DNA of 64,000 nt, taken from assembly GCA_964016885.1 (NCBI GenBank), contig OZ024740.1, positions 341,806,001 through 341,870,000 of the forward strand, written 5' to 3'. Below, piece by piece: positions 23,390 to 46,813 of the stretch. The stretch comes from Eledone cirrhosa (Eukaryota). The first letter of the stretch is position 1. Every line of letters starts with the position of its first letter. Below the pieces are notes generated by a model. It was not told the origin of the DNA, made no database searches, and was given only the letters and a program-made list of their open reading frames with translations. The translations under genes and the position numbers were made by a program.

Positions 23390-23495
23390 TTAAAGTGACA
23401 GGATGATCCAATTGGATGAAATCACTAAGATAAGAAGTAGGAGAGATATTTCTACATGTGATCCAGCTGCTATACGGCACTGTAAAAGATCTAAT
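23390..23495 (-). CDS. Gene 2 terminal exon: GPI-signal-like hydrophobic C-terminus
   Basis: TTTTTATTTCAG acceptor, phase 2; RLDLLQCRIAAGSHVEISLLLLILVISSNWIILSL-TAA (a different frame from listed ORF 23280-23510). The eight exons sum to 2463 nt = 820 aa + stop. Confidence 0.85.
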
Positions 23496-23613
23496 CTGAA
23501 ATAAAAACAATAATTTTGACTATTTATATCCATACTGAAGTTTTACAAAACATTAAAAGGGGAAGTTTACATACATTTCATTCACAATTTTAAACACTGT
23601 CTATATAGGAATG

Positions 23614-23877
23614 TAACCCTTTAGCATTTAAACTGGCCATATCCAGTCAGAATTCTCTCACCTCTCTGTTCAAACCAGCTACAACTGACTGCTTATACTG
23701 ATATTAAGGTATTGTTCTAACCCATGCTAGCGTGGAAGATAGACGTTAAACAATGATGATGATGATGATGTTCTCAAAATAAACAATATAAAAATCTCAT
23801 AGATTCGGAATTATGTAAGCCTTTATCATGAAAATATAATAGTAAATATAGAGTAATGTAAATGCTAAAGGGCTAAA
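23614..23877. mobile_element. piggyBac-type MITE interrupted by a ~50-bp RTE 3' end
   Basis: CCCTTTAGCATTTA...TAAATGCTAAAGGG termini; insert 23719-23770 flanked by a TGTTCT duplication. Confidence 0.8.
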
Positions 23878-24765
23878 TTCAACATGATTCTTTGTACTTT
23901 AATATTATCATAATAATTAACAAATATCAGTCTAAAATATGATAAGGTTGCAAAGTTATAAAACTGTTTAATTAACTATGACTCAATCAATCCCAGTTCT
24001 CAGGCCTTTATGTAGTTCTCTGGGCCATACCAGAGTTTATGACAGACAAAGATTTTCCAAATATAGAAGCAAGGTCTAGAACCCTGAGGTCTAAAAGTAA
24101 ACCTAGTAGAGTCAGTAAGAAAGACTTATAAAACTCTACTGTAATCTGGAAAATGGCAGAGGCTCAATATACATACAAATTATTGGTGTGGACTTTACAC
24201 TTTGTACCCAATGTAAACTATGAGTACCTTAAGAAGGTGCATGTGTGTGTGTGGGGTGGGGGTCACAGTCAAGCTGGCAAAGAAGAAAGACTATGTAGCA
24301 GATACTCAAATGTATTTAGTAATAAGAGCAACAACAACTGCAACAGCAACAACAGCAATAGAACCCATCAATAGTTGTCTGGAATATTACTTTGGTTATC
24401 AATGTATGTATGTCTAACAACATAGAAGCATTAATTTACCACTTACTACATATTGACAGCAAATTAACAGTGTTGTTTGACTGTAATATAAAATATCTTG
24501 CAGTATTTGTTCTGGCTATCTGTGCTTCAAGCTCAAATCCTGCTGAGGTCAACATTGCCTTTCATCCAAAGTAGTATTCCTAATCTGTCAATTAGTTTAA
24601 CATCACAGGTTAGCTCTTGGGCACTTTTAGCAGACTCTACTCTGTTGCAAGCATTTATACCAGGTCTCCAGTTTGAGGATACCTCATTCTTTTCCACCAG
24701 TCTCAAAGGCTCTGACTAAATAGTTAAAAAGAAAAATCATGCAAGATATTTTATTTATAACTTAC

Positions 24766-24920
24766 CTGTTAGGTTCACCTTGCTTTTTCTTTAACCATTC
24801 TAATTCCAGACTGACACCTTCAAACCAAGATTGTTCATCTTCAAAGGGATATTCATAACCTTGTTTACACTTACAGGCATAATTACCAAGACTGAACCCA
24901 AACCCTCTCAGTGGGGAACA
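24766..24920 (-). CDS. Gene 2 exon 7 (EGF-like domain 2); not in the ORF track
   Basis: CCCCTTACAG acceptor, AG|GTAAGT donor, phase 0 to 2; CSPLRGFGFSLGNYACKCKQGYEYPFEDEQSWFEGVSLELEWLKKKQGEPN. Confidence 0.9.
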
Positions 24921-25067
24921 CTGTAAGGGGAAGAAATATTACAAGCATTTCTTATCTAATGACAGTCAACTATAACACTTATCTCATAATGTCAGACATT
25001 GTACAACATATTTTGGTGTATATGTGGTAGTGTGCATTAAGAAATCTAATTAGCAGATACAGTAAGG

Positions 25068-25220
25068 CAGTGATTCCCAACATGGGGTCTGTGGACTTTC
25101 GCAGGGTCTGCAAAAGGAAGTATTGAGAATCAGTTAGCTTCCTGAGTTGACAGACCTTTCATGGGAAAATCCACTTAAATAAACAGTGTCCTTGGTTGTG
25201 AAAAAGTTGAGAATCATTGC
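25068..25220. mobile_element. hAT-Charlie-like MITE
   Basis: CAGTGATTCCCAAC...GTTGAGAATCATTG inverted termini. Confidence 0.6.
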
Positions 25221-25778
25221 ATTAAAGCATCAGATAAAATGTCTTGTGGTCTTTATACTCTTACATTCCAAGCTCAAACCTTGCCAAAGTCAATTTTAGT
25301 TTTCATCCTTCCAGAGACAATAAATATAGGAACAGTTTGTAGCGGTGGAGTAATGGAATCATTAGTACATTGAACAGGGTTTTTTGTGGCATTTTGTCTG
25401 GCTCATTGTATCCTGAGTTCAAATACTGTTGGGTTCTATTTGAGTAGTAAACTTAATTTTTCAGCAAGTTTACCACCAATACATGGCTCTTGGGTGCTTT
25501 TAGGGGAGTCCTCTTGGCTGCAAACATTTGGGTCAGATCTCCAGTTTGAAGATACCTTCCCCCTCCTCCTCTCTCTCCCACTAGTCATAAAAGCCCTGCA
25601 AAGGATCATAGGTGCTGCTCTTCCTCTTGACTCAGCAATGCTCATGTCTAAATATATAGTACATAAAGTTAATAGATGTTTAAAATAACCACTTTCTATG
25701 TAATGGCCATTTTACTTACATATTCTTTGTTTGGAATTAAGATCTGTTTAAGAAATATGTTGGCTTCTTTTAGTTAAT

Positions 25779-26632
25779 ACCAGCAGAATGGCCTGGCGTT
25801 GCTCAGGATTCTAAACATAGATTGGCATGTTTATCCTTCCTTTCTGAAACAGTACAGAAGAGAAGTACGGAATACCTCGGCCTGGGGATGGTGCTTATAA
25901 AAGATATTTGTCGTAGATTACCAGGGGTTTAACTTAATTGGGTGCCTGAGAGTAAAATATTCAACCCACGAAAGTCAAGACGATAGGGTTAAGTAAAAAG
26001 GCATTCGCCAAACCGAACATGTATTTGTTATGCTATGGTACAATGAAAGCAATAGTTACAGAGCAGTAAGGATGTGGGACTGAAGTGGTGGAGAGCATGA
26101 AGGAATTTAGTTGGATACTTTTAAGGTTACAGGCCCTAATGCAACCAAAATGCTAAACAGTGCGGTCCCCGGGCCAAAATTTGAAATCTTTTTCAAGAAA
26201 ATTTGTGAAACATAAGTAATGCATATGCAAAGTTTTTAAAAAATCGGTTGGGTACTTCTCGAGTTACAGGCCCTAATGCAACCAAAATGCTTTAAAAAAT
26301 CGTTTTTTCGCCTAATGCTGTCCCTGGGGCAAAAAATGAGAAAATCTTTTTTGCTCAAGACACTTTAAACGACATAAGTAATGCAAAATTTGGAGAAATC
26401 ACCTGGATATTGTTCCGTTATGCCTAAAAAAAAGCCTTTAAAGCCTAAAATATGTGGTTTTTTCGCCTAATGCGGTCCCTAGGGCATAGAAAATTTGAAA
26501 TATTTTTTTGCTCAAAACACTCACACGACCATTAGTATTACATGTGTAAAGTTTGAAAAAAATCGGTTGGGTGGTTCTTGAGTTTTAGGGAAACAGACAG
26601 ACAGACATTCTCTGTTTTAGATATATCGATGT
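25779..26632 (+). mobile_element. Helitron/Helentron-like non-autonomous element
   Basis: Start ACCAGCAGAATGGCCTGGCGTTGCTC, internal direct repeats (GTTACAGGCCCTAATGCAACCAAAATGCT twice; AAAGTTT..AAAAATCGGTTGGGT twice), subterminal (CAGA)n, resembling Lep1/DINE-type elements. Confidence 0.5.
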
Positions 26633-27794
26633 ATAAAATTACTTTCACTAGATCCCAATCATTACCTTTTGAAATTCTCATTGTGCCAACACTAATTCTC
26701 CCCCTCCTACATATTTTGAGAAAAACCTTGATTCTCTCTCTTGGCTACTACCCAATCTTAGAAGTCCCCTCTCTAGCTTTATAAAGTTCACAAATATGTG
26801 TTTATGTATGTGTTTGTATGCATATGAACGTTTATTTTATATCAAATATATATATTTTCTGTATGTGCATGAGTGAGTATGTATACATGTACCTGTTTAT
26901 ATTAGTTGGCATATGCATATATGGTATGGGCCTGCATTCTGCACTTGAGTAAGTACATATCCTTACAAATGTTTGATGTTTGGCTGTGTCTTCATACTTG
27001 TGTATACATGTATATATATATATATATATATAAATATATATAATATAAAAAACTGCCTGCCAGTACAACCCTTGTAACACAAAAAGTAAATGTAGTGAGT
27101 GACTGGAAGCTACCGCAGGGGTGACCAAATGGAGACAGTAAATGGTTTAAGAGCTCCCGTCAATCTGGGTGAACATGTAGCAACCTCTCTAGTGTTTGTG
27201 CAATGATAAATTTCACCCAGTACACCTTATAATGTGGCAGTGCATGAAAAACGTACCTATGACTTATCATCCACCCTACCCTACATCATATCCACCACAT
27301 CATAAGGTAGAAAGGGCCCTTCACTTGAATTTGACCTACATACTCCCTAGTGCTAGTACCACAATAAAACATACCTAGTACGCTGTGTAAGATAGCTGGT
27401 GATAGGAAGAACACCCAGTTGAAGAAACCATGTCAAACAAAGAGTAGAGAGGACTTTTCAGTTGTGTCAAGAGTATGATGACCTCTCTAGTGCTAGTGCC
27501 ATGATAAAATGCACAATGCACTCTGTAGAGTGCTAGCATATATGAAAACGAGCTGAGGTCCTGGCCCATCTGAGAGATGAGTTGCTCTGATTAAGTACTG
27601 ACTTGGTCTTTGATGACCTCACCCATCCTTTGCTAGTATAATGATATCTTAAAGGCTTAAAGCATTTAGCTAAATAGTAGCAATCTTTAGAATAAATTGT
27701 ACAGTGTATTGTTTATAATAGACAAAAGAGTAAAGTAAACAACCTAAAGTCTGTAAAATGTATAGCTGTATAATTTTCTTTGTAGAAGACTTAC

Positions 27795-27909
27795 CTTTGT
27801 AGAAGCTGGACATAAAGCTGTGTTCTTAAAAGCATTGGCAGTGTAGAATGGCTTTTGGCATTGATTAATGTCCAAGAACTTCAGATCAATATCAACTAGA
27901 ACAAGACCT
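27795..27909 (-). CDS. Gene 2 exon 6 (end of Cache 2, start of EGF-like 2)
   Basis: TTTCTAG acceptor, AAG|GTAAGT donor, phase 2 to 0; GLVLVDIDLKFLDINQCQKPFYTANAFKNTALCPASTK. Confidence 0.9.
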
Positions 27910-29671
27910 CTAGAAATACAAGAAAGAATGAATAAGATGTGCCTATCATTATGACTGTAAATAACATAACGTGTCATGATATTGTTGTTTTTATGTCTGT
28001 TTTTTTCATGATAACATGTAAAGTGGTTGTGTAGATATCACAACAAAAAGGACCCAGTACACACTGTAAATTGGGTTGGCGTTATGAAGGGCACCCTACC
28101 ATAGAAACAAAGCCCAAATCAGTTTTGTATGAGCAAAACATGGTCATCTGATCTGGCATGTTTCACAATGGGACAACTTGTCTAACCCATACTAGCATGG
28201 AAAAATGGATGTAAAACGATAGAAAGAAGATATATATTGTGTGGGTACACACATGATGGGCTTCGTGCAGTTTCTGTATACCAATTTACTCAAGGACATT
28301 TGCTCAAGGTATCATGCAACGGGATAGATCCTGAAGCTATGGTGCTGTGAAGATATAATATATTTGGGAAAATGGATCTATTGATTGTGCCTGGTTCTTT
28401 AACCAACTACCAACTTTGGCTATAACATTGCTGGATTATGGCAGAGTTAGGGATACACAACAACTCCAAATAACCATTTCTCAATTCTTCTTTTCTGCTT
28501 GTCTAATTGTGTCCTCATTACCTTCTTTCTTCCTTCCTTCTCCCACTTCTGATTCTTTCTCCCACTTCAGATTCATTTTACTCTTCCTTCTCCTCCCATT
28601 ATTCTGTTTAGTGACCTTCAACACTCCTACATCCTCTGTGTCAGGCCACCTAAACTGCCCTATATTCTCTGTTAAGTTTACAGTTTTCTTATTCAGATCT
28701 GCCCCCCTCCTCCCCATAAAAATAATACTGTCTTAGTTTCTAAGATTTATTTCAATATTTCTATATTGTTAAGGAATTATTCATACAGTTTGGAAACTCT
28801 TTCTATTGTTAACTACTTAGCTATGTAGTGAGAGTGGAGCCTGCTGCCAATCAAACAGACTGGAACAGGCAGAGTTATGTATGTATGGTCCCATAACTCC
28901 TGATACAGTCATAGAGGCACCGTATATACATACAGGATTTCTCAGGCATTTTAAGCCCCTGCTGGAGCCCATCCGTCTCCAGGCCTGAGTACAGCAGATT
29001 TCTTCCAGGGAAAGATAGAAAGTGAGAGAGAGGAAATGAGAAATAGATATAGAGGAAGAATCCACCCCAGTACTAGACTGGTACTTTTTTTATCGACCTC
29101 AACAGGATGAAAGGCAAAGTTGACCTCGGCTGGATTTGAACTCAGAGAGCAGAGAGCTGGAATGAATACCATAAAGCATTCTATCCAACTTTCTAATGAC
29201 TCTACCAATTCTCCGCTTCTAAGCAGAGTTATATGTTTTGTCAGAGGTCTAGCATAATAGGTGTATTGCTGGCAATGAAAGGTTTCTTTCTCTGATTGAA
29301 TACTGTGAATATGCAAAGGTTTCGAAAAAATGAAGTGAGTATGCTCCACTAGATGTGTGCATAAAAGAAAAGACACATTTGAGCTGAGGGGGAAAACTAG
29401 GCATAAAATAAATCAAATGTAGAGTGCCAGAGAGGAGAATGCATTGGGACAGACATGTGATGCATGTGGATGATGATCATTGGGTAAAAAAATGGAAGAA
29501 AGATATGGTAGAGATAGGCCAAGGGAGACTTTGGGTGAAGTGGTGAATGTAGATTTCAGGATGCTGTATTTCACAAAGAAGATGGCAAAGAAAAGAAGAA
29601 ACAATTGGAGAGATGCTGTGCTGGAAAGAATTTGTCTAACTCATGTAAACATGATAACATATATTTAGAAA

Positions 29672-29977
29672 TAATGATGGCGAGGATGAAGATTATGATG
29701 ATGGTGATGGTGGTGGTGGTGATGATGATGATGGTGGTGGTGGTGGTGGTAATGATGATGGTGGTGGTGGTGGTGGTGGTGGTGGTGGTAATGATGATGG
29801 TGGTGGTAGTGATGATGATGATGACGACGATGACGACGATGATGAAGATGATGATGATTATGATGATGGTGGTGGTGGTGATGATGATAATGTTGATGAT
29901 GACGACAACAATGACGACAATGACGATGACGATGACAATGACGAAGATGATGATGATGGTGGTGATTATGATGATGG

Positions 29978-30011
<34 letters not shown>

Positions 30012-30145
30012 GGTGATGATAATGTTGATGATGACGGCGACAACGATGACAATGATGACAATGATGATGATGATGATGACGATGACGAAGATGATGATGA
30101 TGCTAAGGCTGTTGATGATGATGGTGATTATGATGATGATGATGA
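29672..30145. repeat. (ATG)n/(GTG)n compound microsatellite
   Basis: Directly visible. Confidence 0.97.
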
Positions 30146-30294
30146 AGTGTTGAACACATTACAATGGTCATGAGAGGTTTTAAAATGTGTCGGATGAATG
30201 TAAATTATTGTTGATGTTAAGAATATCAGGACTAAAGAAATACAAATAGATAAATCTGAAGAAAAAACAAGAAAAAAAACAAATGCTGACTTAC

Positions 30295-31129
30295 ATAAAC
30301 TTTACAGTGAGGGAGGAATCATGACTAAAAAATGGAACAGTATAGGTAATGACCCATTTGTCAATTCTTCCATCACAACGGTAAGTTGGTCCACTCCATC
30401 GACCAGACTTGAAAGTAGGTGCCTTGTATGGCATATCACTGTATTTAAAACGTGTTCTTCCTGTTCCATTAATATTAGACCGTACAAATGCTTTAATATG
30501 GAATTTTTTCAATGCCTTTGTGTTTGATTTAAAACGTTCTTTTTCTGCCATGAACCATGGTGTATGTAAATAACTTTCTTTCAATCCTGCAGCATCTATT
30601 GCCCACCAACCATCATCCTTTCTGTAAGCCCAAGGTCCAAACAATGACTTTTGTTTCCCATTAGCTCCAATAAATTGGTAACTGTCAAAAAACACTGCAG
30701 AAGAAAGTATTTTGTGATCTGACATAACGTTAGCTAAAACCTCAGCAAATACATGGTCTTCCTGAAGTTGCTGTCCTCCATTCATGGTTCCAAAATTTAC
30801 ACCAACTTCATTGTTTTGTAAAAAACTGCTAAGAAAATGTGCCAGACGCAGAGCTGTTCTGGCTTGTGGTTCAAATTGTGATTCAGCTCCATATATCACA
30901 GATCCAGATAATGACAGGCCTGATGGAGGTTCTTTATGACAGTTTGTTTTGTTCATATCACCAATTTGTTTCATAAGAGTTGTCACCTTAATAGCAAGCT
31001 TCTCATCATAAGCATTTCGACGCTGGCGAGATGTCCTATGTTTAATATTTCTTTTGATGTTTAATGTTCTCTGATGTTGCATATATAATGTTAGACTTCT
31101 ATGTTTCTCCAATTGTTGTACTTTACGAT
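30295..31129 (-). CDS. Gene 2 exon 5 (basic linker with RQRR + Cache module 2)
   Basis: TATTTCAG acceptor, AT|GTAAGT donor, phase 1 to 2; in frame with ORF 30291-31112; ARTALRLAHFLSSFLQ and WSGPTYRCDGRIDKWVITYTVPFF motifs. Confidence 0.9.
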
Positions 31130-31381
31130 CTGAAATATAAAATGTTAAGCACAGTTTTGTAAATAAATATATTATCTCTACATACAGCTTACATTAGCTG
31201 ACAATGTGAAAATGTTCTGGATGTATGGCTATTAAATAGAGAACTAGCTCTTTGACATCCATAACCAATATGAACTGGATTACACAATTTGAGTGTTGAA
31301 GACACCAAACAGTGTCTCAAACACTCTAATTTGTTATTCTTTTACAGGTTTTAGTCATTGGATTGCAACCATGGTCTATGT

Positions 31382-31783
31382 CAGAGGTTCTCAAACTATC
31401 GGGGCCACTACCCCCCCTCAACGCCACGTAATACCCTCAGTGCCCCCACCCCTATTTCTAGAGAGACCTGCCTACATGGAAATTATAAATAACATATAAT
31501 AAATAAAATTGTTATCATCATCATCATCGTTTAACGTCTACTTTCCACACTATCATAAGTTAGACGAGTTTGCCGCTAATAAATAATATAATATATAATA
31601 TGTATAAATAGATATTATACATTTTTTATTTTACTATATTTATATATAATATGTATCATTTGATATACTATTATGTCATCTGTACCACAACCCCATCACC
31701 TGCTTAGGCCATTGCACCCCACCCCCCTGGACCTTCTCGACGCACCCCCCCAGGGGTGGTGGCGCCCACTTTGAGAACCTCTG
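31382..31783. mobile_element. hAT-Charlie MITE with 8-bp target duplication
   Basis: CAGAGGTTCTCAAA...TTTGAGAACCTCTG TIRs; flanks GTCTATGT / GTCTAGGT (Charlie-type NTCTAGAN); contains a small RTE 3'-end insert near 31515-31570. Confidence 0.85.
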
Positions 31784-32412
31784 GTCTAGGTTTATATAGA
31801 GTAAAATTAGGGTTAAGCAATAACATCATCAGCATTTAGGCAATTCATTTAAAGGTCCCTGTGATGCTAATGAAGTTACATGCTACATTTGAATGATGTA
31901 GAGGCACTCTATATCCCATAATACCACAAACAACATCATCCTTATCTCATGTTAACTTATGAGAAACATCACCTCTATTTTTTATATCATGCATTTTGTA
32001 AACAATAGTATCATTAGTTATAGGTTTTCAAAGGCTCAATGACTTTTAAAAAGTCTTTCTCAAGCCATGAGACTTATCAGGCTGGATCCCAGTTCCATGA
32101 GGTGTTAAGCAACTGAAAATACAAGACACCCACTGGGATGGGATGTCAATTGATTGCAAGAGTCAATCACTGGTTCACTGCATTTACAATGGTGAGAGTC
32201 TCAAGGGAGTGTCTTGGATAAGATAAATACCTTAAGGTATTTTTATTCAGCACACTATTTTTCTTGCTGGTGTGAATAGCTTTTTACAACACACACACAG
32301 ACTCTCTCACATTCACACACTCACACACAGACACACACACATGCTCACTCACACACATGTGCACTCACACACAAACACACAACACACTCACCTACACATA
32401 AGTACTACTTAC

Positions 32413-32578
32413 GTTGAATGGGAGTACATGTGAAACCATTCTTATATTCCTCCTCAGTAGCTTGTTCTATATTAGTTCCATGGAATGGTGGTTTAATATA
32501 GGATGGATATTTATAGCCTCGATTGCAGACACACTTGTAACCTCCTCGCTTAAACCCGAAGCCTGGTACATGTTTACA
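32413..32578 (-). CDS. Gene 2 exon 4 (EGF-like domain 1); not in the ORF track
   Basis: TTTTTCAG acceptor, C|GTAAGT donor, phase 0 to 1; CKHVPGFGFKRGGYKCVCNRGYKYPSYIKPPFHGTNIEQATEEEYKNGFTCTPIQ matches the GPR158-type CxPxxGxGFxxGxYxCxCxxG(F/Y) motif. Confidence 0.9.
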
Positions 32579-33317
32579 CTGAAAAATTAGAATATTTAAT
32601 AGCTGTTAGGATATACACAACTGCATTGGCTGTCAGCTGTTGAGACACTGCATCCTACAAAACTTCCATGCTTCCCGAAATTCGTCAACACTACACCTGA
32701 TATTGCCCCTCCATACACATGTACACATGTGTGTGTGTCTGTGTGTATATCATGACTCATACGCTGTTCACTTTCCTGACATTTGTACATTATTCTATGT
32801 ACTATATATGTACCTTTGATGAGTTGTAGTGCACCTGAGCATTGTACACAATAATTTTCTTTATTATTATTATATATATAACCTGCTGAGGTTAACTTTG
32901 ACTTTCATCCTTACGGGGTAGATAAAATAAAGCACCAGTAATACACTGGTATAATTGCTGGCATTGTGCCAAAAGTAGAAACAATTATTATTATACCTAA
33001 CAGGTATCTTTACAGTTTCCATCAACTAAATTCACTTGCAAAGCACTGATCACTTCAAGGGTAGGTATAGAAAAATACATTTGCCCAAGGTGTCGTGAAG
33101 TGGGACTGAACCTGAAATCACAGGATTCTGAAATAAATATCTTAACTACACAACCATGCCTGTAACCATGCCTATATAAAACCATATTTAAAAAGATAGC
33201 GTGTTAGTTTTTTGACATGGGAAGACTGGTGTATTTAGGTAGAGTAGTGAGATTTGAGATATAATTTAGTCATGTAAACCCTCATTATATGATATGCCCT
33301 GAACATAGTAGTGTATT

Positions 33318-33537
33318 TTAACCCTTTAGCATTTACATTACTCTATATTTACTGTTATATTTTCACGGTAAAGGCTTTATTTCACATAATATCAAATCTA
33401 TGAGATTTTGATATTATTTATTTATTTTGAGAACAATACATTAACATCAGTATGAGTGGCCGGTTACAGTCAGTTTGAGCAGAAAGAGGTGAAAGAATTC
33501 TGGCCGGATACAGCGGATTTGAATGTTAAAGGGTTAA
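33318..33537. mobile_element. piggyBac-type MITE
   Basis: TTAA-CCCTTTAGCATTTA ... AAAGGG-TTAA. Confidence 0.85.
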
Positions 33538-33542
33538 ATACA

Positions 33543-34163: not shown

Positions 34164-34285
34164 GAGTACATGTGTCTGTAGAATGCTCAGTCACTTGCAC
34201 GTTAATTTCCTGAGTTAGGCTGTTCTACAGAACATTCATCATGAGAGCCAACAGAAAGATCCAACACATCACACCGTGCTCTTAC

Positions 34286-34412
34286 CTTTGTGGTTGGTTT
34301 ACACCTGTCAATTCCGGCAAGATAATTGGGAGGTGGATTTCCAATGCTTAAAGGACAGGCATTAAAGTCAATTTTCCGGAAATAGGTATCCATGGTAATC
34401 AATGCAACTATT
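34286..34412 (-). CDS. Gene 2 exon 3 (end of Cache 1, start of EGF-like 1)
   Basis: TTTTTTTCCCCTAG acceptor, AAG|GTAAGA donor, phase 2 to 0; IVALITMDTYFRKIDFNACPLSIGNPPPNYLAGIDRCKPTTK. Confidence 0.88.
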
Positions 34413-35992: not shown

Positions 35993-36728
35993 TTGCTAAT
36001 TTTTTTTGTTGAGTCATATTATTTATGCAGGATTTACACACTTTATTTTAATGTTATTGATATGAAGATAAATAGTAAGCTGACATAAAAGGATGATGAT
36101 ATGACAGACTTTGTACAATTTCCATTCAATTTCATCCCCAAAGCATTGCTCAGCCTGAGGCTAGAGTAGAAGACGCTTGCTCCATATGTTACACATCATC
36201 ATCATCATTAAACGTCCATTTTTCCATGCTAGTATAGGTTAGACAAGTTGTCCTGTTGTGAGACGAGTTAGATCAGATGACAATGTCTTTCTCATACAGA
36301 ACTGATTTTGGCTTGGTTTCTACAGCTGGATGCCCTTCCTAATGCCAGCCACATTTACAGTGTACATTGGGTGCTTTTTATTGTGACACCTATATGATCA
36401 ATTTACAGTGGACTGGGTGTTCTTTGTCATTACACCTATATGACCATTTTACAGTGTTGACTGGCCACTTTTTGTTGTGACACCTATATGATCACTTTAT
36501 AGAGTGGGCTGGGTGCTTTTTGTTGTGTCACCAATTCAACCACTTTACAGCAAAACCAAAAACCATGTAATTGTAAAGCAAACTTCTTAACTACAGTCAT
36601 ATCTGCACCCAATATTTATAATATAATAATAGAATATGAATGGAATAGAAATATGATATGAAAACAGTATAAAACATCCAAAACTTTTACAAAATTTTTC
36701 AAGTCAAAAATATTTATCCTTCTTTTAC

Positions 36729-37074
36729 CTTGGTCTTCTCATATGGGTGAATCGCAAGTATCTCGGCATGAAATCTATCACAGGTGAGACTGCAGAAACT
36801 ATCCATTCATTTGACTTTTTACAGTCAAAATATGGCCGAGTAAATCTAACCGGAAGTTCTTCATCCAAAGAATGCTGACCAGGAAGAGCAGGTCCAAAGA
36901 AAACCGAAATATTAAAATGATCACTGATGAACTGTCCTGGTCTGTTTGAATATTTTATGCCCACTGAATACTTATATTTCGTCAAAGAGTCCTTACTCTT
37001 ATACACATCAGGCATATTCCATAAAGAATACCAAATATTTGTTTTACTCCATCTGCTTGTGTAATTGTCATAAC
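36729..37074 (-). CDS. Gene 2 exon 2 (Cache module 1)
   Basis: ATTTAG acceptor, AG|GTAAAA donor, phase 1 to 2; FTRPYFDCKKSNEWIVSAVSPV resembles the WxxPYxxC...W(L/I)V motif of GPR158-type Cache domains. Confidence 0.88.
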
Positions 37075-39221
37075 CTAAATAAAAAATAGAAACCACAGTG
37101 TAGTATATCAATGAGAAGAATAATACTCGTCCGAAACTATTATTATTGTAGATTGGTAATATCGGTAGAGAGTTGGATGCCATGCTTTGCAGCAAAGAGT
37201 TACAGTCCCTTATGGTCCGAGTTCAAATCCCGCCGAAGTTAAATTTGCCTTTCATCTTTATGGGGTTGATAAAATAAAGCACCAGTAATGCACTGGAGTA
37301 ATTGCTGGCCTTGTGCCAAAAGTAGAAACAATTATTGTAATTGTTATAAAATGTCCTTTTTATAAAGATTAACTCTGTCAGTACCAAAATACCAACTAAT
37401 ATATTGTTTATCTCCCACCATTTTTAAATGCCAAAAATATACCCCTTTAGTATTTAAACCGACCATATCCAGCCAGAATTCTCTCGCCTCTTTCTTTTCA
37501 AATCAGCTATAACTGGCTGCTCATACTTATGTTAAGATATTGTTCTCAAAATAAATAATCTCAAAATCTTGTAGATTTGATATTATGTGAAATAATTATG
37601 TGAAATAAAGTGTTTACCATGAAAATATAATAGTAAATATAGAGTAATGTAAATGCTAAAGGAGTACTGGTGTGTTTTACTTTAGTTTGTGAAGTGCATG
37701 CCAAGATAAAGTAAATAAAGAAAATTTGAAATATCTATTTTATTTTACTTTTTGCAATGCTTTGAAAAATGCAGATATTAACATGTAGTAACTGTTTGGG
37801 GCAGTAGAGTACAAAAAAACCAGCACTGGCATTCAAAGAGTTAAAGGTGAGATACAGTTCTTTATTCTACATAGATAATTTCATTGACATTTATTTGCTC
37901 ATTTTCTTTTGCATTTCTCATTGAATAAATTAGAAGGTATGTAGAGTAGATTACCAAATGTAAATATAATAATTCACGCTACCAAATTAACAATGTACTC
38001 ACTTCCAAGTTGGTGTCAGAAAGATTATTTATAAATCATTTGCTCTATCTTTGAGGCAAAGTATCTAAATTTGTAGTATATATCAAATGCTGGTGAAAGG
38101 AAATGGATGTGGAAAGAAAGGAATCTAATTGAAATAAATTACACATATTAGCACAAAATTAGTATTGATGTATACATGTATATTTGTAGGGGTGTGAAAT
38201 GCTGCATGTGATTTAACTACAGAACTTTCCCTGGGCTTGTAATTTGCAGCACACCCTAAAACTCACACACACACACACATATATATATATATGCATAGAC
38301 ACACATGCACAAATACACACATATGCATATACATGCACACAGACAGAAAGAGCAGCACATGATTAAGTATATAGGGCAGGTTGGTCTTTAAAGCTAACTG
38401 GTGAAATCAATTAATGTTTTGTTTACTCATTACTTGAATAATTTTAGTAGGCTGAATATTTTCAGCTCTCTATGTGACATATGTGAGACCCTACTGTAGA
38501 GATGTATGCATATATATTATATAAGGAGGAGAAGGCGCAAAACAAAAATACAATATATTGAAACAGGTTTGAAATTTGTACCAAAAATTAAATAAACAAG
38601 AGCAACCTACCAGCAGCGCCTATGAGAGGGGGGGGGGGGGGGGGGGTCCAGCCAATACTTTGTTCTGGGGTCCAAAAGCTAAGAAGGTCCCACAACAACC
38701 ATTTTGAGAAAAATCTTTGTCGGCTTCAGGCCCCAAATGGGTCTTGTACCACCTTGCAAAATTTCTCTTGGAGGCCCTGCCTACCAGTACACAAGTGAGA
38801 AACTGCCACCTAAGTAAGAATAGGGTGCTCCATGAGCCTGACCCCTTCTCACACAGATCACATTCTGCAAACTGGGTCCTCTGTAATTACCAGAGAATTT
38901 TTTGACCTTAGCCAGGCTGAGCAGTGATACCTTAGCTGTCGATAGATTGCTGATGGGATCTCTAACCGCCATCTATCCTTTCAGGGATCAGGGTATACCC
39001 TATCACATCCTCAGTAAATATAGTATGTAGCTTTTCCTCTTTTAGTTTTATCACCAAATCAAATAATCTGTGGGTACGCCTTCAGATTACTCCAAAATTT
39101 AGGTACCCCATTAGAAGTGGGCGTCTTTTAGGGAGCAACTTCCAGTCTCTTAATTGTCTTTTACCTGAGATTTTAATTACTGTTTCCTATGGGTTACCTC
39201 ACCTTTCTCCAGTCTCTGTCT

Positions 39222-39675
39222 AAGGGTTCTCAAACTCAAGGACTCAAAAGAGCCATTACATCCTAGGGGAGAAGCACAGCAGGCCAAAAGTAAGCTGAAG
39301 GGTGCTAATCTGATCTGCAATACAGCTGATTGACTGGTATTTATTTTTTTTTTATCAAAATGAATACACATATGATAATAAGTGGAATATATGATTAGCA
39401 TAAAATGTTAGGGTACAAATTATCCATTTCAAAATTTCCTTAATTCCGTTTTTGATTTTGGTAAATTCCTTTTTTTTCGATTTTCATTTTTGATAAATTT
39501 TGTTTTATTTTTTCCCATTTTATTATATTTCATGGGTAAATTTCAATAAATTGTGCTATAGATATTATCAAAAGAGGAAGAAATTACCAAGTTTTAAAAA
39601 TAAATATTAGTCATGAAAATTGTTTTGCTGTGGGCCATACAAAAGTAGTTGGTGGGCTGTGAGTTTGAGACCCTG
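39222..39675. mobile_element. hAT-like MITE
   Basis: AGGGTTCTCAAACTC ... GAGTTTGAGACCCTG inverted termini. Confidence 0.5.
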
Positions 39676-40490
39676 GCTCTATTGCCAATTTATCGCCTTG
39701 TAATGATGAATCGATGAAAGGAGACTGCTGCTTAGAGTATCTGGTGGGGCCTGTGTTGGAGAAGGAAACTATTGCTGCAAGGAGTATCTGGTATGGCCTG
39801 TTAATAGCATTAACAGCAGCAATAACAATAGCAACAAAAACCATGGACTTCACCTTAGGGCTTTGCTGTTGCTGCCTCTGCTACTCTTTGTCCTTACCTT
39901 TAACCTTTTTTGCCTCCTTTCTCCCTCAAGTGGTTCCTACACCCACAAACATAGCAAATTGATCTTCTGCTCTGCACAGCCAATCTGATTGACTGTCTCT
40001 CCACTCCCTTAATGTGGTATAACTCCAGAATAGTCTTGTTGGCTTCAGGGTCATCAGAACTTATATGTCCATGCAGACTGCCACTAAATCACATGTGGGT
40101 TTTTTTTTTTATTATTTTTGTTTTTATTGTGCTTCCCAAATTATAACTGTTTATGTTTATTTGACATTTAGCAAGAGGGGGATCTTTTTTTGCAAACTAT
40201 CTTTGTATCTGAAAGTATTTTTCACACTGAGGATGAAGACATTTTAATTGTTTCCAATCTGGCCAATGCCAACACTTGTGAGAAGTGGTGCTTAGGAAGC
40301 AACAATTGTAGTAACCTATGTTTTCACCATGGGATCTACTATTATTATTGCTTCTGCCTCTACAGCATCCTGAAAATGGCCTTACTAAGCACTGCACACA
40401 TATTACAAAGCATATTCTCAATACAATAGAAATAACAACACTGCACATAACCAAGGCACACAGAGCTGTGCTCAGTAATGCAGTAACCAG

Positions 40491-40549
<59 letters not shown>

Positions 40550-41349
40550 TTCTTTATTGGCCACAAGGGCTGACATCAAGAAAAACATTACAAACGGCAC
40601 AGGATGGTACAGGACGGTACGATGTGGGTTTTGTGCGTGTAAATATTTTTATTATTTATATAAGAAAAGAAAAAAAAAAGACATAGAAACATATATATAA
40701 ACAATAAAAATGAAAATTGAAACAATGAAAAATTCCCCAATAGGGGGGGAAACCTCCGAGGGTTACTCGTGGCGAAAACCACACAAAAGACCACGGCCAC
40801 CCTGACCACCAGGGCAAGCGCCCTCTCTCAATTTTTCCATTTCTCAAACTATAGGCGTATATTCAGAGCGGTCCAGTTCACTCGGACCATTCTCGCTACA
40901 TTCACCCACCTTTCAACAAACTTGCTAGAGGGCAGCATTTGCCTCTCCACCCTGATTTTCCTCTTCAAGTGAAACTTGAAAAAGTTAATTAGGGATTTGC
41001 CGAAGAGGAAAGTGTCTGTCTTTAACCCTTTCCACCTTGTCCACCACACAATCTCTTTCGCCATGGCCACCAGGCAAATGAAAACCGCCTGCCCTTCCTC
41101 CTCGAAGGAAGACGGCGAGACCATCTGCACAATGGACTCAGTCGATAACCGGATCAGTCCTACACGCGACAGCAACTGTTCGACATAGCTCCACAAGTCA
41201 GCAATGCTCGGGCACTGAACGAGTGCGTGCACGACGGTTTCGTCGCTCTGCGCGCATCTCGGACAGGCTCGGCTGACGGCACTTCCGTGCCTGTAGAGCT
41301 TATCTCGAACCGGCAGCGCTCCCCGGTAGCACTGCCAGGCCAGGGATTT
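40491..41349 (-). mobile_element. Tx1/L1-like LINE 3' fragment (copy A) with AATAAA and (ATT)n tail
   Basis: Encodes the CPRCAQSDETVVHALVQC zinc knuckle (zf-RVT type) and C-terminus; tail at 40491-40549. Confidence 0.88.
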
Positions 41350-41350
41350 T

Positions 41351-43794
41351 TAATAATAATAATAATGCTTTCTTTATTAACCACAAGGGTTTACACAAAG
41401 TAGACATTAAGGACAGTACAGGACAATACAGGTACAAATGGGCATTTCTGCAAATAAAAAAAACAAAAAAACAGAGGATGTAATAATGAAAAATTCCCCA
41501 ATAGGGGGGAGACTTCCGAGGGCCATCGAGGAGAAAACCCATTAAAAAAAGCCACGGTGACCCTGACCACCAGGGCAATTGTCCTCTCCCAGTTTTCCAC
41601 CTTCAATTTACAGGCATATACTCAGAGTAGGTCCATTCACTTGAGCCATACTTGCCTCTCTCACCCATCTGTCAACAAAAAGCTGGGAAGAGAGCACCTC
41701 CCTCTCTACTCTGATTTTCCTTTTCAAATAAAATTGGAAAAAGTTAATCAGGGCATCACCGAAGAGGTAAGTGCTCATCTTCAGCCCTTTCAGACGCGTC
41801 CGCCATACTATCTCTTTCGCCATGGCCACCAGACAGATAAAAACTGCATGCCCTTCCCGGTTAAAGGAAGAGGGCAGGGAAATCCTCACGATGGACTCAG
41901 CTGATAGTCGGATCCGTTCTACACGTGACAGCAGGTGTTTGACATAAACCCACAAGTCAGCAATGCTCGGACACTGGACGAGTGCATGCAGGACGGTTTC
42001 GTCGCCCTGCGCGCATCTCAGACATGCCCGGCTGACGGCACCTCCATGCCTGTAGAGTTGTTTATCCCAAACTGGCAAAGCTCCTCGGTAGCACTGCCAG
42101 GCCAGGGATTTCTGGAAGTTGTCCATAGGCCTTGGCATGAAAGTTCTTCCAAAGAGATTGGCTAGTTGATTTTCGTCGATGCCTAGTTTCCCCAAGTATG
42201 TCGTCGCTCTTCCCCTCCACTAATCCTCTATAGAATGCCAAGGTGGAATTTTCACCAATCACATTGCCCAATTGGTCGAGGGCTGTGAGCACCTGAAGAC
42301 ATTCCAGTCTCCAAGCGCTCCCTCTCGGTCTTCACTTGATCCAGGACTGCAGCTCCGTCAGGGAGATGAGCTGGGGAAAGACGCATCTAGCAAATGCCGA
42401 CCACACCTGATCACCGTCGAGGAAGAGGTGGAGATGTCGTAGCCTGAGCGCGTGTCTGCGCATCATAAGCCACAGCATGCCCAGCCCTCCATGTAGCGGG
42501 TGTTGACAGCAGATGGACCGCCTGACCACCGGAGCGCATCCCTTCCACAAAAAGCGGAAGAGCAAACACTCCAGCGCAGTCAGGTGAGGCTTAGGACAAG
42601 GCACGACGGTCAGGCGGTAGTAGATGACGGACGCGATGTACGCGTTAACCACCTCCGCTTGACCTTTCAGGGATAGCTTACTCTCCGCCCATTTCTGGGT
42701 GAGAGAAGCCACCCTGCTCATCACCTCGTCCCAGTTTTTGTCCGTCTGGAGGCCCGGACCGAACCAGACCCCTAGCAATTTAACCGGTCCATCCGTCCAG
42801 CGCCTGACGACGCCATTGGATGGCATGGACATGCTTCTCCAGGTGCCGAGCTGCAGGCCCACCGACTTTTCCTGATTGATCATTGCTCCTGTCACAGCGT
42901 TGTATTCTCTTAGTGTAGTGCCAATCGCCTCGATGTGTTTGGCGTTCGACACCACTACGGTGACATCGTCCGCATATTCTGACATGGATCTTCCGCATCC
43001 TAGTTCACACGCGCCCCCCCCCCCCCCCTCAACGTCTCCAGTTTGTGCAGTAATGGCTCGAGAGTCAATACGTACAAGAGGGACGAGAGGGGACATCCTT
43101 GGCGGACCGAGCGCATGATGTTGAATGGTTCCGAAAGGTGACCGTTCACTCTCACCACAGAGCAGATGTCGCTGTGCATAGCAGAGATCCAGCTTCTGAA
43201 GACGGGCCCAAAGCCAGACGCCAGATAACGATGGTCGACCCTATCAAAAGCTTTCGACTGATCTAAATTGATCAAGGACCCACCCGTGCCAGGTTCCCTA
43301 GCTACCCGCTCCACAATGTATCGCATGAGGTGGAGGTTGTCGTGGATGGATCTGTCGGGAATGGCGCATGTCTGCGCCTCTCCTACCAGACCACCAACGA
43401 CAAGCGCCAACCTCTTTGCTAGCACCTTGACCAAAATCTTGAACTCTGTGTTTAGAAGAGTTATGGGCCTGAAATTATCTATGTTATCCCCCTTGTTCGG
43501 ATCCTTTTTCAGCAGCACCACCGTTTCTCGGCTCACAGAGCTGGGAATTCTCCCGTTCTGTTGCCAGTTGCAGTAGACGTCCGCCAAGAGGCCTCCGAAC
43601 AAGTCTGGCATCTGTACGTAAAGTTCATAGGGCAGACCATCCGATTTACCCTTTGTGCAGCCAGTCATTGCCTCCCATACTTCAGCTGCTGTTATCGGCT
43701 TTTCGCAACACTTCGCCTCAGTGGCCGAGAGCCGCGGCAGTCCGTCAAGGTAGACACTAAAGTCCATCCCTCGATCCGGCCCACCGCTGCCCCC
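41351..43794 (-). mobile_element. Tx1/L1-like LINE (copy B), RT to 3' end, frameshifted
   Basis: NFRPITLLN, LDQSKAFDRV, VRQGCPLS, YADD and KLLGV motifs across ORFs 43000-43848, 42332-43096 and 41608-42195; own AATAAA + (ATT)n tail. Confidence 0.92.
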
Positions 43795-44541
43795 CGATAA
43801 CTGGATCCGTCCTACATGCGACAGCAACTGTTCGACATAGCTCCACAAGTCCGCAATCTTCGGACACTGAATGAGTGTGTGCAGGACAGTTTTGTCACCC
43901 TGCGCGCATCTCGGACAGGTTCAGCTGACAGCACTTCCATACCTGTAGAGCTTATCTTGAACTGGCAACGCTCCGCGGTAGCAATGCCAGGCCGGAGATT
44001 TCTGGACGTTGTCCATAGGCCCCGGGCTGAAAGTTCTCTTGAAGATAGCGAATAGCTGATCATCTTCGATGCCCATGGTCTCACTCAAAACGTCATCGCT
44101 CTTCCCCTCCATTAGTCCTCTATAGAACGCTAAGTTGTAGTTCCACCGATGCTAGTGCCCAGCTGGTAGAAGGCTATGAGCGCTTGGAGACATTCCAGTT
44201 TCCAAGCGCTATCCCTCTGTCTTTTCCTGATCCAGGACTGCAGCTCCGTTAATGAGACGAGCTGGGGAAAACACGTCTGGCAAACGGCGACCACACCTGT
44301 TCACCATCAAGGAAGCCCCAGAGATGTCGCAGCCTCAGTGCATGTTTGCGTATCATCAGCCACAGTCCTCTGTGCAACGGGTGCTGACAGCAGATGGATC
44401 GTCTGACCATGGGAGCACGTCCCTTCTATAAAAAGCAGAAGGGGAGGCGCTCCATTTTTGTCAGAGTTGGGCTGTGGCAAAGCACAACGGTTAGGCAGTA
44501 AAGATGACAGATGCAATGAACGCATTCGCCACCTCTGCCCT
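43795..44541 (-). mobile_element. Tx1/L1-like LINE internal fragment (copy C), truncated at both ends
   Basis: Paralogous to about 41905-42665 of copy B (AEVANAFIASVI ... LWSYVEQLLSHVGRIQLS). Confidence 0.85.
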
Positions 44542-44564
44542 AACAACAGTAATAATAGTATAAT

Positions 44565-46122
44565 AATAATTGTTTCTACTTTTGGCACAAGGCCAGCAAT
44601 TACCCAGTGCATTACTGGTACTTTATTTTATCGACCCCCGTAAGGATGAAAGGCAAAGTTAACCTCGACAGGATTTGAACTCAGAATAGCAAGGGCCGTA
44701 ACTCTATGCGTCAAAGCATGGCATCCGACCCTCTACCAATACTGCCAATCCACCGCCATAATAGTATAATAATAATTGTTTCTACTTTTGGCACATGGCC
44801 AGCAATTACCCAGTACATTACTGGTACTTTATTTTATCGACCCCGTAAGCATGAAAGGTAAAGTTAACCTCGGCGGGATTTGAACTCAGAATAGCAAGGG
44901 CCGTAACTCTATGCGGCAAAGCATGGCGTCCGACCCTCTACCGATACTGCCAATCCAGGCACAAGGTTAGCAGTTTGAGTGGAGGGAAAGCGAATTAAAT
45001 TGACCCCAGTACATAACTGCTACTTTATACTATTGACCCACAGTTAATCTCAGAATTTAAAGAGTCAGAACAAATACAAGTCGATAGGGTTTCTAATTTA
45101 AGCATAAGGCCAGCAACTACATGTAATAATAATGGTTTCTGATTAAAGCACAAGGCCAAAGGTTTTGGGGGAGGGAAAGTTGATTAAGCCTTAAGCATTT
45201 AAACCTGCCATATCCATCCAGAATTCTCTCACCTCTTTCCATTCAAAGCGGCTGTGACCGGCCACTCATACTGATGTTAAGGTATTGTTCTCAAAATAAA
45301 TATCAAAATCTCATAGATTCGATATGAGATATTATGTGAGATAAAGCCTTTACCATAAAATATAATAGTAAATATAGAGTAACGTAAATGCTAAAGGGTT
45401 AAATCAATCCCAGGACATTACTGGTTCTTTACTTTATCGAGCCCATAAGGATGAAAGGCAAAGTTGAACACAGAATGTAAAGGGATGTAGCTCTATGCTG
45501 CAAAGCTCTACCAATCCACTGCCTTGCATTTTCTTGAATTACCATAACAATGGTTTCTGCACAAGGCCAACAATTTTTGGGAGGAGAAATCGATTAAATC
45601 AACCCCAGTTCATTACTTGTGTTTTATTTTATTGTCCCTATAAGGATGAAAGGCAAAGCTAACCATGGCGGGATTTGAACCCTGAATGTAAAGGGTCGTA
45701 ACTATATGCCACAAAGCATGTTGTCCGACGCTCTACCGATACTGCCAATCCATAACAATATTAAAAAGTAAAGACCCTTTTCTGTTGTGAATGATCATGG
45801 ATTTTGCACCTAGAAAGTTTCCCTCCAAGACATAAGCCTAGGTAAGATGTTTTTGTGGACCAGCAGCAGTCTGGGTGTCGAACTCACAACCTCACGATTG
45901 TGAATCCAACTCTCTAACCTTGGTAACTCTTGAGGGAGTCGTAGTGGCAGTGTATTGACATATGGCATAATATACAACAGTACTAAAACAACAACAACAA
46001 TAATAATGGTTTCTGAGTTAGGCACAAGGCCAGCAATTTTGGAGGAGGGGAAAGTTGATTAAATCGACCCCAGTGTATTACTGGCACTTTATTTTATCGA
46101 CCCCGTAAGGATGAAAGGCAAA
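44565..46122 (-). mobile_element. Cluster of tRNA-derived Nin-domain SINE copies and fragments (plus one MITE)
   Basis: Repeated B-box GAGTTCAAATCC, GCCTTTCATCCTTACGGGGTCGATAAAATAAAGTACCAG core and GGCCTTGTGCC...AGAAAC(AAT)n tail; near-identical tandem pair 44565-44760 / 44775-44956. Confidence 0.88.
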
Positions 46123-46200
46123 GCTAAATAATGTTAATAATGTTGGTCAGTGTAATGAGAAAAAAATAAATATAATAAACAAAAAAAAGCTTATGTTTAC

Positions 46201-46813
46201 CTGTTCCCATGTCAGAAACTTTTGTCGATGTCAATGTTGGTTCATGTAAGAAATTTTCTGAATCTCTTGTGTCATCGTATCTCCAAGCTGATGGTGCAAA
46301 CAATGGTAGAGTCCTGTTAAATGGGTAAATCCCTATCCAATTTGGATAATGACAGTTGTTGTCAAAATATATGGAACTTCCATTGACAAGGTTAGGGTTA
46401 GAGTTAACATTAGCAGTAACACTCATATAAAGATACAACCATCCAGGTAGATTGGGGAAATCCTTTGACTGATTAAACTTTTGTAGAATAAAACTGTGAA
46501 AGTAGGCTCTATTTAGTGCTAAGTTGTGTAAATGAAGCAATCCAGTTCTGTTGCGATAAAAAACTTTGCTCAAGAGATTATTGTATTTTGGTATCTGTGA
46601 AACAGTTCCAGGCCTCAGGAGAATATCAGACATCGATTTTGAACGACAGTTTTCTGCATTGACATTTTTCATAAAACTATCAATGTAATCAAATTTGTCT
46701 TTCTTCTGCCATTCCCACAGTGAACATTGACTAAGTCTTAGTATTCCTATGATGAAAACTAAACTGTACAGAGTCATAGGTGCTGAACCAGAGAATTTAT
46801 ATTTGATCAACAT
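46201..46813 (-). CDS. Gene 2 coding exon 1: signal peptide + start of first GPR158/GPR179-like Cache module
   Basis: ATG at 46813 (second ATG at 46777 gives MTLYSLVFIIGILRLSQC signal-like peptide); G|GTAAAC donor at 46200; NRTGLLHLHNLALNRAYFHSFIL motif; phase 1. Confidence 0.85.

What the first reader, a model, noticed from the sequence alone, without database searches (positions are those of the whole stretch)
23390..46813. Headless GPCR: GPI-anchored tandem GPR158-type Cache/EGF ectodomain protein with no 7TM domain
Seen: eight exons with canonical, phase-compatible splice sites give 820 aa: signal peptide, Cache+EGF module, basic linker, second Cache+EGF module, then IAAGS-HVE-hydrophobic tail-stop with no cytoplasmic residues. 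Known: this module is the ectodomain of the class C receptors GPR158/GPR179; GPR158 binds glycine through its Cache domain. Inference: a GPI-linked small-molecule sensor, co-receptor or decoy that must signal through a partner. The layout (multiple Cache domains, internal cleavage, GPI anchor) parallels calcium-channel alpha2delta subunits. I recall similar uncharacterised invertebrate proteins, so the family may be known by sequence but not by function.
Basis: partly seen in the sequence, partly recalled or inferred. Interest (0 to 1): 0.8.

Follow-up and report, generated by a model that had tools for sequence, protein, structure and literature searches.

The report
Lipid-anchored fused GPR158 ectodomain dimer
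This octopus gene is spliced into a message for a protein made of two copies of the outer sensor part of the GPR158 brain receptor with no membrane-spanning receptor body; the copies are predicted to clasp each other like the receptor's normal dimer, and the protein is likely held on the cell surface by a lipid anchor, where it would bind a small amine or amino acid for a partner protein.

Summary
Confirmed. Eight minus-strand GT-AG exons give 820 aa. A spliced contig joins exons 5-8 exactly and ends just before an AATAAA; no 7TM exon lies in the window. The protein is a signal peptide, two GPR158-type Cache+EGF modules and a GPI-like tail. It belongs to a protostome family (molluscs, annelids, flatworms, arthropods, Drosophila) named only automatically; nine literature searches found no functional study. 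This scan noted the same architecture before in another genome (e1-7832283).

Added here: (1) the two modules are predicted to pack through the helices that form the GPR158 homodimer (score 0.86, best control 0.00; possibly from memory of solved dimers), so it is likely a single-chain pseudo-heterodimer. (2) Module 1 keeps a near-invariant W-Y / Y-x-D / D-E pocket without the carboxylate-binding Arg; module 2's pocket varies. (3) The furin-type linker is spiralian (67 of 69 rows) and absent from 110 further arthropod proteins. (4) Each module holds one Cache domain, not dCache; the alpha2delta parallel is analogy only. It is not a GPCR. Ligand, partner and GPI anchoring are untested; matrix or synaptic adhesion is a close rival.

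The parts
46201..46813 (-). Exon 1 coding part, aa 1-204: signal peptide, N-terminal helices and first half of Cache module 1
   Evidence: Open frame from ATG, GT donor; collinear with octopus orthologs
46724..46813 (-). Predicted signal peptide, aa 1-30
   Evidence: Hydrophobic stretch; N-terminal hydrophobic segment in 93 of 95 complete rows; cleavage site inferred by eye, SignalP not available
36729..37074 (-). Exon 2, aa 205-320: second half of Cache module 1 with pocket residues W219, Y220, Y286, D288
34286..34412 (-). Exon 3, aa 320-362: last Cache strand (D328) and start of EGF-like domain 1
   Evidence: homologous to exon 6, same phases 2 to 0
32413..32578 (-). Exon 4, aa 363-418: EGF-like domain 1
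   Evidence: PF22572 E 7e-4 and weak EGF hits
30295..31129 (-). Exon 5, aa 418-696: basic linker, N-terminal helices and Cache module 2
   Evidence: Spliced contig; PF22673 E 1e-4; fold matches
31017..31037 (-). Furin-type motif in the linker, aa 449-455 (R-x-x-R-x-R-R); cleavage predicted
   Evidence: R-x-K/R-R in 67 of 69 rows of the spiralian group and 0 of 110 further arthropod proteins
27795..27909 (-). Exon 6, aa 696-734: last Cache strand and start of EGF-like domain 2
   Evidence: Spliced contig; PF22572 E 1e-5
24766..24920 (-). Exon 7, aa 735-786: EGF-like domain 2
   Evidence: Spliced contig joins it to exon 8; PF22572 E 2e-4
23390..23495 (-). Exon 8 coding part, aa 786-820: last Cys (C792), predicted GPI signal (omega candidates A795 or A796, hydrophobic 804-820), stop TAA
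23292..23389 (-). 3' UTR with AATAAA at 23297-23292
   Evidence: Contig runs to 23302; hexamer scan

Best explanation
The gene encodes a signal peptide, two GPR158-type Cache+EGF modules and a hydrophobic tail with no 7TM domain; the modules are predicted to fold against each other as a single-chain copy of the GPR158 ectodomain dimer that is likely GPI-anchored and likely binds a small amine or amino-acid-like ligand in module 1 on behalf of a transmembrane partner. Shown: gene structure, splicing of exons 5-8, domain content, absence of a 7TM, family-wide conservation. Predicted: the module 1-module 2 interface on the GPR158 dimer helices. Inferred: GPI addition near A795/A796; furin cleavage of the linker in spiralians, after which unanchored module 1 would stay held on anchored module 2 by that interface; module 1 as the ligand site and module 2 as the structural, membrane-proximal half; signalling by a change of shape passed sideways to an unknown receptor or channel. 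My odds by step: architecture 0.97, GPI anchor 0.8, pseudo-dimer 0.8, small-molecule site in module 1 about 0.55, signalling through a partner about 0.4 overall.
For: Architecture. AlphaFold2 of the 79%-identical ortholog P0001 on 107 sequences: pLDDT 90.7, pTM 0.88, so the modules have a defined relative position. Module 1 against module 2 as separate chains: score 0.86, best of 3 controls 0.00, runs agree in at least 86% of contacts, partner pLDDT at least 74; that mark was reached by 51 of 78 solved complexes and 2 of 108 mismatched pairs (eukaryotes: 71 of 105 and 2 of 126). Best contacts pair F516/F520 with Y128, M131, S132, A135 (P0001 numbers), which I map by hand to GPR158 F135/M139 and W156/L160, the published dimer core (PMC8611064 passages). 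GPI-like tail in 90 of 108 rows against 11 of 5400 control 28-mers, 0 of 108 with an internal TM-like segment; 95 of 110 further arthropod proteins. Module-1 pocket in 107 homologs: W 92, Y 104, D 106, D/E 99; in the 110 further proteins W 109, Y 110, D 110, E 110. Module-2 equivalents: Y 56, D 50, D 56 of 107, and T/R/D in this protein. These are the positions shared by the bacterial amino-acid and amine motifs, while the carboxylate-binding Arg is Asn (87 of 107), as amine sensors lose it (PMC8915833, PMC10589655 passages).
Against: No ligand, partner, localisation or anchoring experiment exists. The complex score may come from memory of solved GPR158/GPR179 dimers, and the alignment was not used. 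Interface residues are no more conserved than the rest (0.60 vs 0.59 and 0.56 vs 0.57). Pocket equivalences rest on sequence alignments, not on a superposition of coordinates; module 1 is modelled from homologs, and Foldseek found no match at E<=0.001 for it alone. The Asn at the Ser172 position lies in an invariant N-x-S sequon (107 of 107), so it may carry a glycan rather than bind a ligand. Conserved W/Y/D residues could be structural. GPR179 has a similar Cache domain, does not respond to glycine and binds pikachurin (PMC11437087 passages). The GPI call is my own rule, not NetGPI; 18 of 108 rows failed it (11 short tails, 4 lacking the last Cys column, 3 other).
Confidence: 0.42

Rival explanations
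1. It works as a GPI-anchored adhesion or synapse-organising protein: the fused Cache dimer binds heparan-sulfate proteoglycans or a matrix protein, with no small-molecule sensing.
For: GPR158 binds glypican 4 and GPR179 binds pikachurin through their ectodomains (PMC9027133 and PMC11437087 passages); this job needs no 7TM. The fused dimer would present the same top surface. High conservation across insects (65-91% identity) fits a fixed protein partner.
Against: Does not explain why the inner pocket of module 1 is near-invariant while that of module 2 drifts. The pikachurin-binding loops were not compared.
Confidence: 0.3
2. It works as a ligand buffer or carrier: surface-bound or shed by anchor or furin cleavage, it holds a small ligand and shapes its local concentration without signalling.
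For: No intracellular residues; conserved pocket; cleavage motif in spiralians. A fruit-fly accessory-gland secretion proteome lists an 802-aa protein labelled CG31195 (PMC4652233 passage); that this gene is the fly ortholog is my recollection and was not verified.
Against: A buffer needs no conserved asymmetric dimer; arthropods lack the furin motif (0 of 110); abundance is unknown.
Confidence: 0.15
3. It works as a decoy or accessory subunit that heterodimerises with 7TM GPR158-type receptors through its Cache helices.
For: Module 2 stays closer to 7TM receptor ectodomains (profile scores 144-167 bits for 17 of 18 receptors, against 73-105 for module 1). Cleavage could free its dimer surface in spiralians.
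Against: That surface is predicted to be occupied by module 1 with about 230 contacts; arthropod forms have a short linker without the motif.
Confidence: 0.07
4. The model is a truncated GPCR gene, or the tail is an ordinary single transmembrane helix rather than a GPI signal.
For: Contigs drop rare isoforms. One 7TM protein, P0233, shows two PF22572 stretches. Two of 107 homologs have long extensions after the hydrophobic stretch.
Against: Spliced exon 7-8 junction, stop and AATAAA; no 7TM match in the window; nearest 7tm_3 matches on this contig 26 and 108 Mb away among 44 candidates scored; 0 of 120 listed proteins carry 7tm_3, and the 4 of 120 that do cover at most 46% of the query; the repeat in P0233 is a near-exact partial duplication that looks like an artefact. 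Median 3 residues follow the hydrophobic stretch.
Confidence: 0.06

Closest known systems
GPR158 (mGlyR) and GPR179, class C receptors; invertebrate CG31760-type receptors
   Same: N-terminal helices + single Cache + EGF-like domain (PF22572; HHalign 100% over 303 columns for module 2, 96.9% for module 1's Cache; Foldseek best hits 8irj, 8d1b, 7ewl); same predicted dimer helices.
   Different: Two modules in one chain; chain ends after the first Cys of the pre-TM1 Cys-rich loop; no 7TM, no RGS7-binding tail; Ser172/Arg173 replaced (N144/G145, L559/S560). Modules 1, 2 and 7TM ectodomains form three separate groups in a tree of 50 rows.
Uncharacterised 'GPR158/179 extracellular domain-containing' proteins of protostomes (O. 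sinensis LOC115216171, D. simulans GD20036, Anopheles AGAP001418, Aedes AAEL002869)
   Same: Whole architecture; 79% identity to the octopus ortholog, 35% to the fly protein over the full length; ESM Atlas cluster of 1026 members, PF22572 100%, no 7tm_3 listed.
   Different: This copy has a more divergent module-2 pocket (T666, R668) and the spiralian furin linker. The family carries automatic names only; some entries are labelled 'GPR158' though they lack a 7TM.
Bacterial dCache_1 amino-acid and amine sensors (PctA, PctD, PacA, McpX, histidine kinases 3lic/3li8)
   Same: Cache fold (module 2: 3lic Z 15.1, rmsd 2.6, 147 aligned; module 1: Z 10.8, rmsd 3.5, 138 aligned); module 1 keeps the W-Y, Y and terminal acidic positions.
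   Different: One Cache domain per module, matching the distal half only; no Y-x4-R part of the amino-acid motif; no transmembrane helix to a signalling domain.
Calcium-channel alpha2delta subunits and CACHD1
   Same: Extracellular, several Cache domains, membrane anchor at the C-terminus; internal cleavage and GPI anchor of alpha2delta are recalled.
   Different: No VWA domain, no nested dCache pair (PMC8915833 passages); weak fold matches only (8x90_B Z 5.1, rmsd 5.2, 143 aligned; 8s7c_A Z 4.6); EGF domains present; cleavage motif absent in arthropods.

Membership tests
GPR158/GPR179-type class C GPCRs | Cache ectodomain | tested here: met
GPR158/GPR179-type class C GPCRs | EGF-like cysteine-rich domain after the Cache domain | tested here: met
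   PF22572 two stretches, E 6e-42 in P0001; six Cys per module
GPR158/GPR179-type class C GPCRs | 7TM domain (PF00003) and cytoplasmic tail | tested here: not met
   Spliced contig ends in exon 8; no 7TM match in the window; 0 of 108 rows with an internal TM-like segment
GPR158/GPR179-type class C GPCRs | Ectodomain dimer through two Cache helices | tested here: met
   By prediction only, between the two modules: 0.86 vs best control 0.00; may reflect memory of solved dimers
GPR158 (mGlyR) glycine receptors | Pocket Ser172/Arg173 and glycine binding | tested here: not met
   Aligned positions N144/G145 and L559/S560. Ser172 from PMC11437087; Arg173's role is recalled. Binding itself not testable
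dCache_1 amino-acid sensors (AA motif) | N-terminal half Y-x4-R-x-W-Y | tested here: not met
   W-Y kept, Arg position is Asn in 87 of 107 (module 1) and variable in module 2
dCache_1 amino-acid sensors (AA motif) | C-terminal half Y...D | tested here: met
   Module 1 only: Y 104, D/E 99 of 107, spacing 41 rather than 27-34; alignment-based
dCache_1 amine sensors (AM motif) | Full AM motif as drawn in PMC10589655 | tested here: inconclusive
   Positions shared with the AA motif are kept and the Arg is lost; the figure defining the full motif was not seen
alpha2delta / CACHD1 | VWA domain inserted in nested dCache domains | tested here: not met
   No VWA hit in 17 homologs at E<=0.01; the mature chain is accounted for by two Cache+EGF modules
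GPI-anchored proteins | Signal peptide plus C-terminal omega site, spacer, hydrophobic tail, no cytoplasmic domain | tested here: met
   Own rule: 90 of 108 rows, control 11 of 5400; not NetGPI
GPI-anchored proteins | Release by PI-PLC / GPI on the omega residue | not testable with these tools
   Needs experiment
Protostome tandem GPR158-ectodomain family | Two modules each grouping with the family's own module 1 and module 2 | tested here: met
   Tree: module 1 group support 100, module 2 group 96; full-length identity

The most novel reading that the evidence does not exclude
Protostomes have an unrecognised class of receptor: a lipid-anchored, single-chain asymmetric dimer of the GPR158 ectodomain whose first module is a biogenic-amine or neurotransmitter sensor, reached by the same loss of the carboxylate-binding Arg that made bacterial amine sensors, and which controls a channel or receptor from outside; spiralians cut it into two chains, arthropods do not.
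Probability: 0.25. Interest if true: 0.82.

Novelty: new variant of a known kind. Interest (0 to 1): 0.56.

Why it matters
GPR158 was only recently tied to glycine and GPR179 is still an orphan; how their Cache dimer senses and what it binds are open questions, and no glycine-bound structure exists (PMC12834959 passage). This family offers a soluble-ready, self-contained dimer with one conserved and one drifting pocket, easy to express and screen. It is kept at 65-91% identity across insect orders, is present in Drosophila, mosquitoes and schistosomes, and is absent from the vertebrate hits seen, so it can be tested by genetics at once. If it only glues cells to matrix, it is still a conserved, unstudied surface protein often mislabelled as a GPCR.

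Tried and rejected
Exon-wise phmmer against PDB sequences found nothing useful; only a family profile did. Run search: no RNA holder listed; the spliced contig was seen only on laying. Reads were laid over exons 5-8 only, so junctions 1-4 have no direct read support. Foldseek with the module-1 model gave no match at E<=0.001; the wide aligner did. Interface conservation did not exceed background. No deuterostome, cnidarian or nematode name appeared among the tandem hits, but lists were capped (120 of 126, 150 of 1377, 120 of 292), so absence is not shown. The Science paper on mGlyR (PMC10751545) is not held; GPR158 pocket residues other than Ser172 are recalled. Literature searches found no study of this architecture; subscription journals and bioRxiv supplements were not searched, and supplements were not read. 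The name CG31195 for the D. melanogaster ortholog is recalled and unverified; three passages gave no function. Scan notes by sequence and place gave nothing. The neighbouring + strand frame at 13382-14056 stayed unidentified. Rejected: dCache label, alpha2delta membership, truncated GPCR, glycine as a default ligand.
Full report
Gene. The finding lies on the minus strand. Eight exons with GT-AG introns give one open frame of 2463 nt and 820 aa. Run X1, whose kind is not on record, holds a 2543-nt contig that lies on exons 5, 6, 7 and 8 at the modelled junctions with no other letters and continues 88 nt past the stop, while X2-X4 read through introns; an AATAAA follows 5 nt later. All four runs come from one study.

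No 7TM. Ten 7TM-bearing relatives and their profile match only the ectodomain exons in the window (all 1884 stop-to-stop frames of 20 aa or more scanned). In the genome, 17 7tm_3 matches were found among 44 candidates; the nearest on this contig are 26 and 108 Mb away (a lower bound).

Domains. Pfam gives PF22572 in 17 of 17 first homologs, twice in P0001. The family profile hits only GPR158 and GPR179 chains in PDB (E 1e-15, one stretch). AlphaFold2 on the ortholog P0001 gave pLDDT 90.7, pTM 0.88; Foldseek's best hits are GPR179, a histidine-kinase Cache domain and GPR158, and the second aligner covers module 2 (3lic Z 15.1, rmsd 2.6, 147 aligned; 7ewp Z 12.2, rmsd 4.4, 221 aligned). Module 1 was folded from a partial homolog (P0201, pLDDT 83.8): Foldseek found nothing at E<=0.001, but the wide search ranks Cache sensors first (3lic Z 10.8, rmsd 3.5, 138 aligned, chain range 53-192; GPR158 7she Z 6.7). 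The match is to one Cache unit, so 'dCache' is wrong. The modules are 23% identical over 344 columns and share two intron positions and phases, which points to an internal duplication.

Family. Searches returned 17, 126 (120 listed), 1377 (150 listed) and 292 (120 listed) proteins. Named tandem members come from cephalopods, gastropods, bivalves, annelids, flatworms, an orthonectid, a rotifer, a nematomorph, a tardigrade, chelicerates, a myriapod, crustaceans and insects, including Drosophila species and mosquitoes. For counts I aligned 107 of the first 125 ids, dropping 18 partial, fused or 7TM-bearing ones. In a tree of 18 module-1, 18 module-2 and 14 7TM ectodomains each set is one group (support 100, 96, 99), and both module groups hold arthropods and spiralians, so the duplication is older than their split; the tree has no outside root. 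This genome has two further paralogs and a fragment; the C9 paralog ends in the same kind of tail.

Anchor. After the last conserved Cys the family reads C-R-aliphatic-small-small-small, a short spacer, a hydrophobic run and the end. My rule passes 90 of 108 rows (tail 24-36 aa, median 3 residues after the run) against 11 of 5400 control segments; 15 of the 18 misses have short or missing tails, several ending at the exon-7 boundary, which suggests incomplete models. 95 of 110 further arthropod proteins pass. In 7TM receptors this Cys begins a Cys-rich loop before TM1, so the tail replaces that loop and the 7TM. GPI addition is inferred, not shown.

Linker. R-x-K/R-R occurs at 1.24 per 100 aa in the linker and 0.014 outside: in 67 of 69 rows of the first, spiralian group, 6 of 38 of the mostly arthropod group and 0 of 110 further arthropod proteins. 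Cleavage is therefore optional for the family.

Pseudo-dimer. GPR158 dimerises by packing helix 4 on helix 5' and 5 on 4', around F135, M139, W156 and L160 (PMC8611064, passages). Folding residues 33-420 with 456-797 of P0001 as two chains gave 0.86 against a best control of 0.00, runs agreeing in at least 86% of contacts and partner pLDDT at least 74; the mark was reached by 51 of 78 solved and 2 of 108 mismatched pairs. The surest contacts join F516/F520 to Y128-A135 and A550 to N102-F106, which I map by hand to the same GPR158 helices and residues. Because like dimers are solved, the pass may show likeness rather than binding, and the interface as a whole is not more conserved than the rest, though core residues are (Y128 0.99, A135 0.98, R512 0.99, F516 0.94, E547 1.0).

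Pocket. The bacterial amino-acid motif is Y-x4-R-x-W-Y then Y...D; amine sensors keep W, Y, Y and D and lose the first Y and the Arg (PMC8915833, PMC10589655, passages). Module 1 shows that pattern almost invariantly (W219, Y220, Y286, D288, D/E328; Asn217 for Arg), module 2 does not. Neither keeps GPR158 Ser172/Arg173; module 2 often has a bulky residue at the Ser172 position (W in 102 of 110 arthropod proteins), as GPR179 has Tyr145 (PMC11437087, passages). Amine-binding chemoreceptors rank high in the fold lists, but their Z values are close to other Cache domains and a fold shows no ligand.

Mechanism and rivals. Most likely (0.42): a surface, lipid-anchored fused dimer that binds a small amine or amino-acid-like ligand in module 1 and acts through a partner. 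Rivals: adhesion to proteoglycans or matrix, a known role of GPR158/179 ectodomains (PMC9027133, passages) (0.30); ligand buffer (0.15); decoy for 7TM receptors (0.07); truncated GPCR or plain TM tail (0.06).

Novelty. The parts are known and the proteins are in databases under automatic names; nine searches of the held library found no description of the architecture or function. A survey of class C architectures describes Cache/EGF only as a metazoan receptor module in the passages I saw (PMC12716839). Verdict: real; new variant of a known kind; not a GPCR; interest 0.56.

Noticed in passing
G000:C1:342569320-342629319 (L001-L006): A second copy of the whole region lies 761 kb away in the same orientation, 97-99.8% identical; six exons are identical, exons 1 and 5 differ by one base each (by hand E186K, Q437E). 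Its variants appear in run X4. Either an uncollapsed haplotype or a recent duplication.
   Followed up: partly
L007-L008 (C1:320.35-320.37 Mb), L010 (C9:44.01 Mb), L012 (C26:12.72 Mb): Two paralogs of the same family with shared intron positions, and a fragment of the C9 paralog with an in-frame stop.
   Followed up: partly
window 13382-14056, + strand: Open frame of 225 codons, acidic then proline-rich, ending in a stop; looks like the last exon of a convergent neighbouring gene. No convincing Pfam or Atlas match.
   Followed up: partly
window 41611-43920, - strand (intron 1): Broken non-LTR retrotransposon pieces: RVT_1 and zf-RVT hits.
   Followed up: partly
window 19912-22964 (-), 3351-4547 (-), 4874-6193 (+): Interrupted LINE-like copies with endonuclease, reverse transcriptase and a PHD-like insert; one begins about 430 bases past the gene's stop.
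   Followed up: partly
window 46376-46384, - strand (aa 144-146): An N-x-S sequon invariant in 107 of 107 and 110 of 110 homologs sits at the position of GPR158 pocket residue Ser172.
   Followed up: partly
proteins P0202, P0232, P0236: Shorter spiralian relatives with two Cache units that lack one or both EGF domains and the hydrophobic tail: possibly secreted forms or incomplete models.
   Followed up: no
window 29658-30170: A long GAT/GGT trinucleotide repeat lies in intron 5, about 125 bases from exon 5.
   Followed up: no
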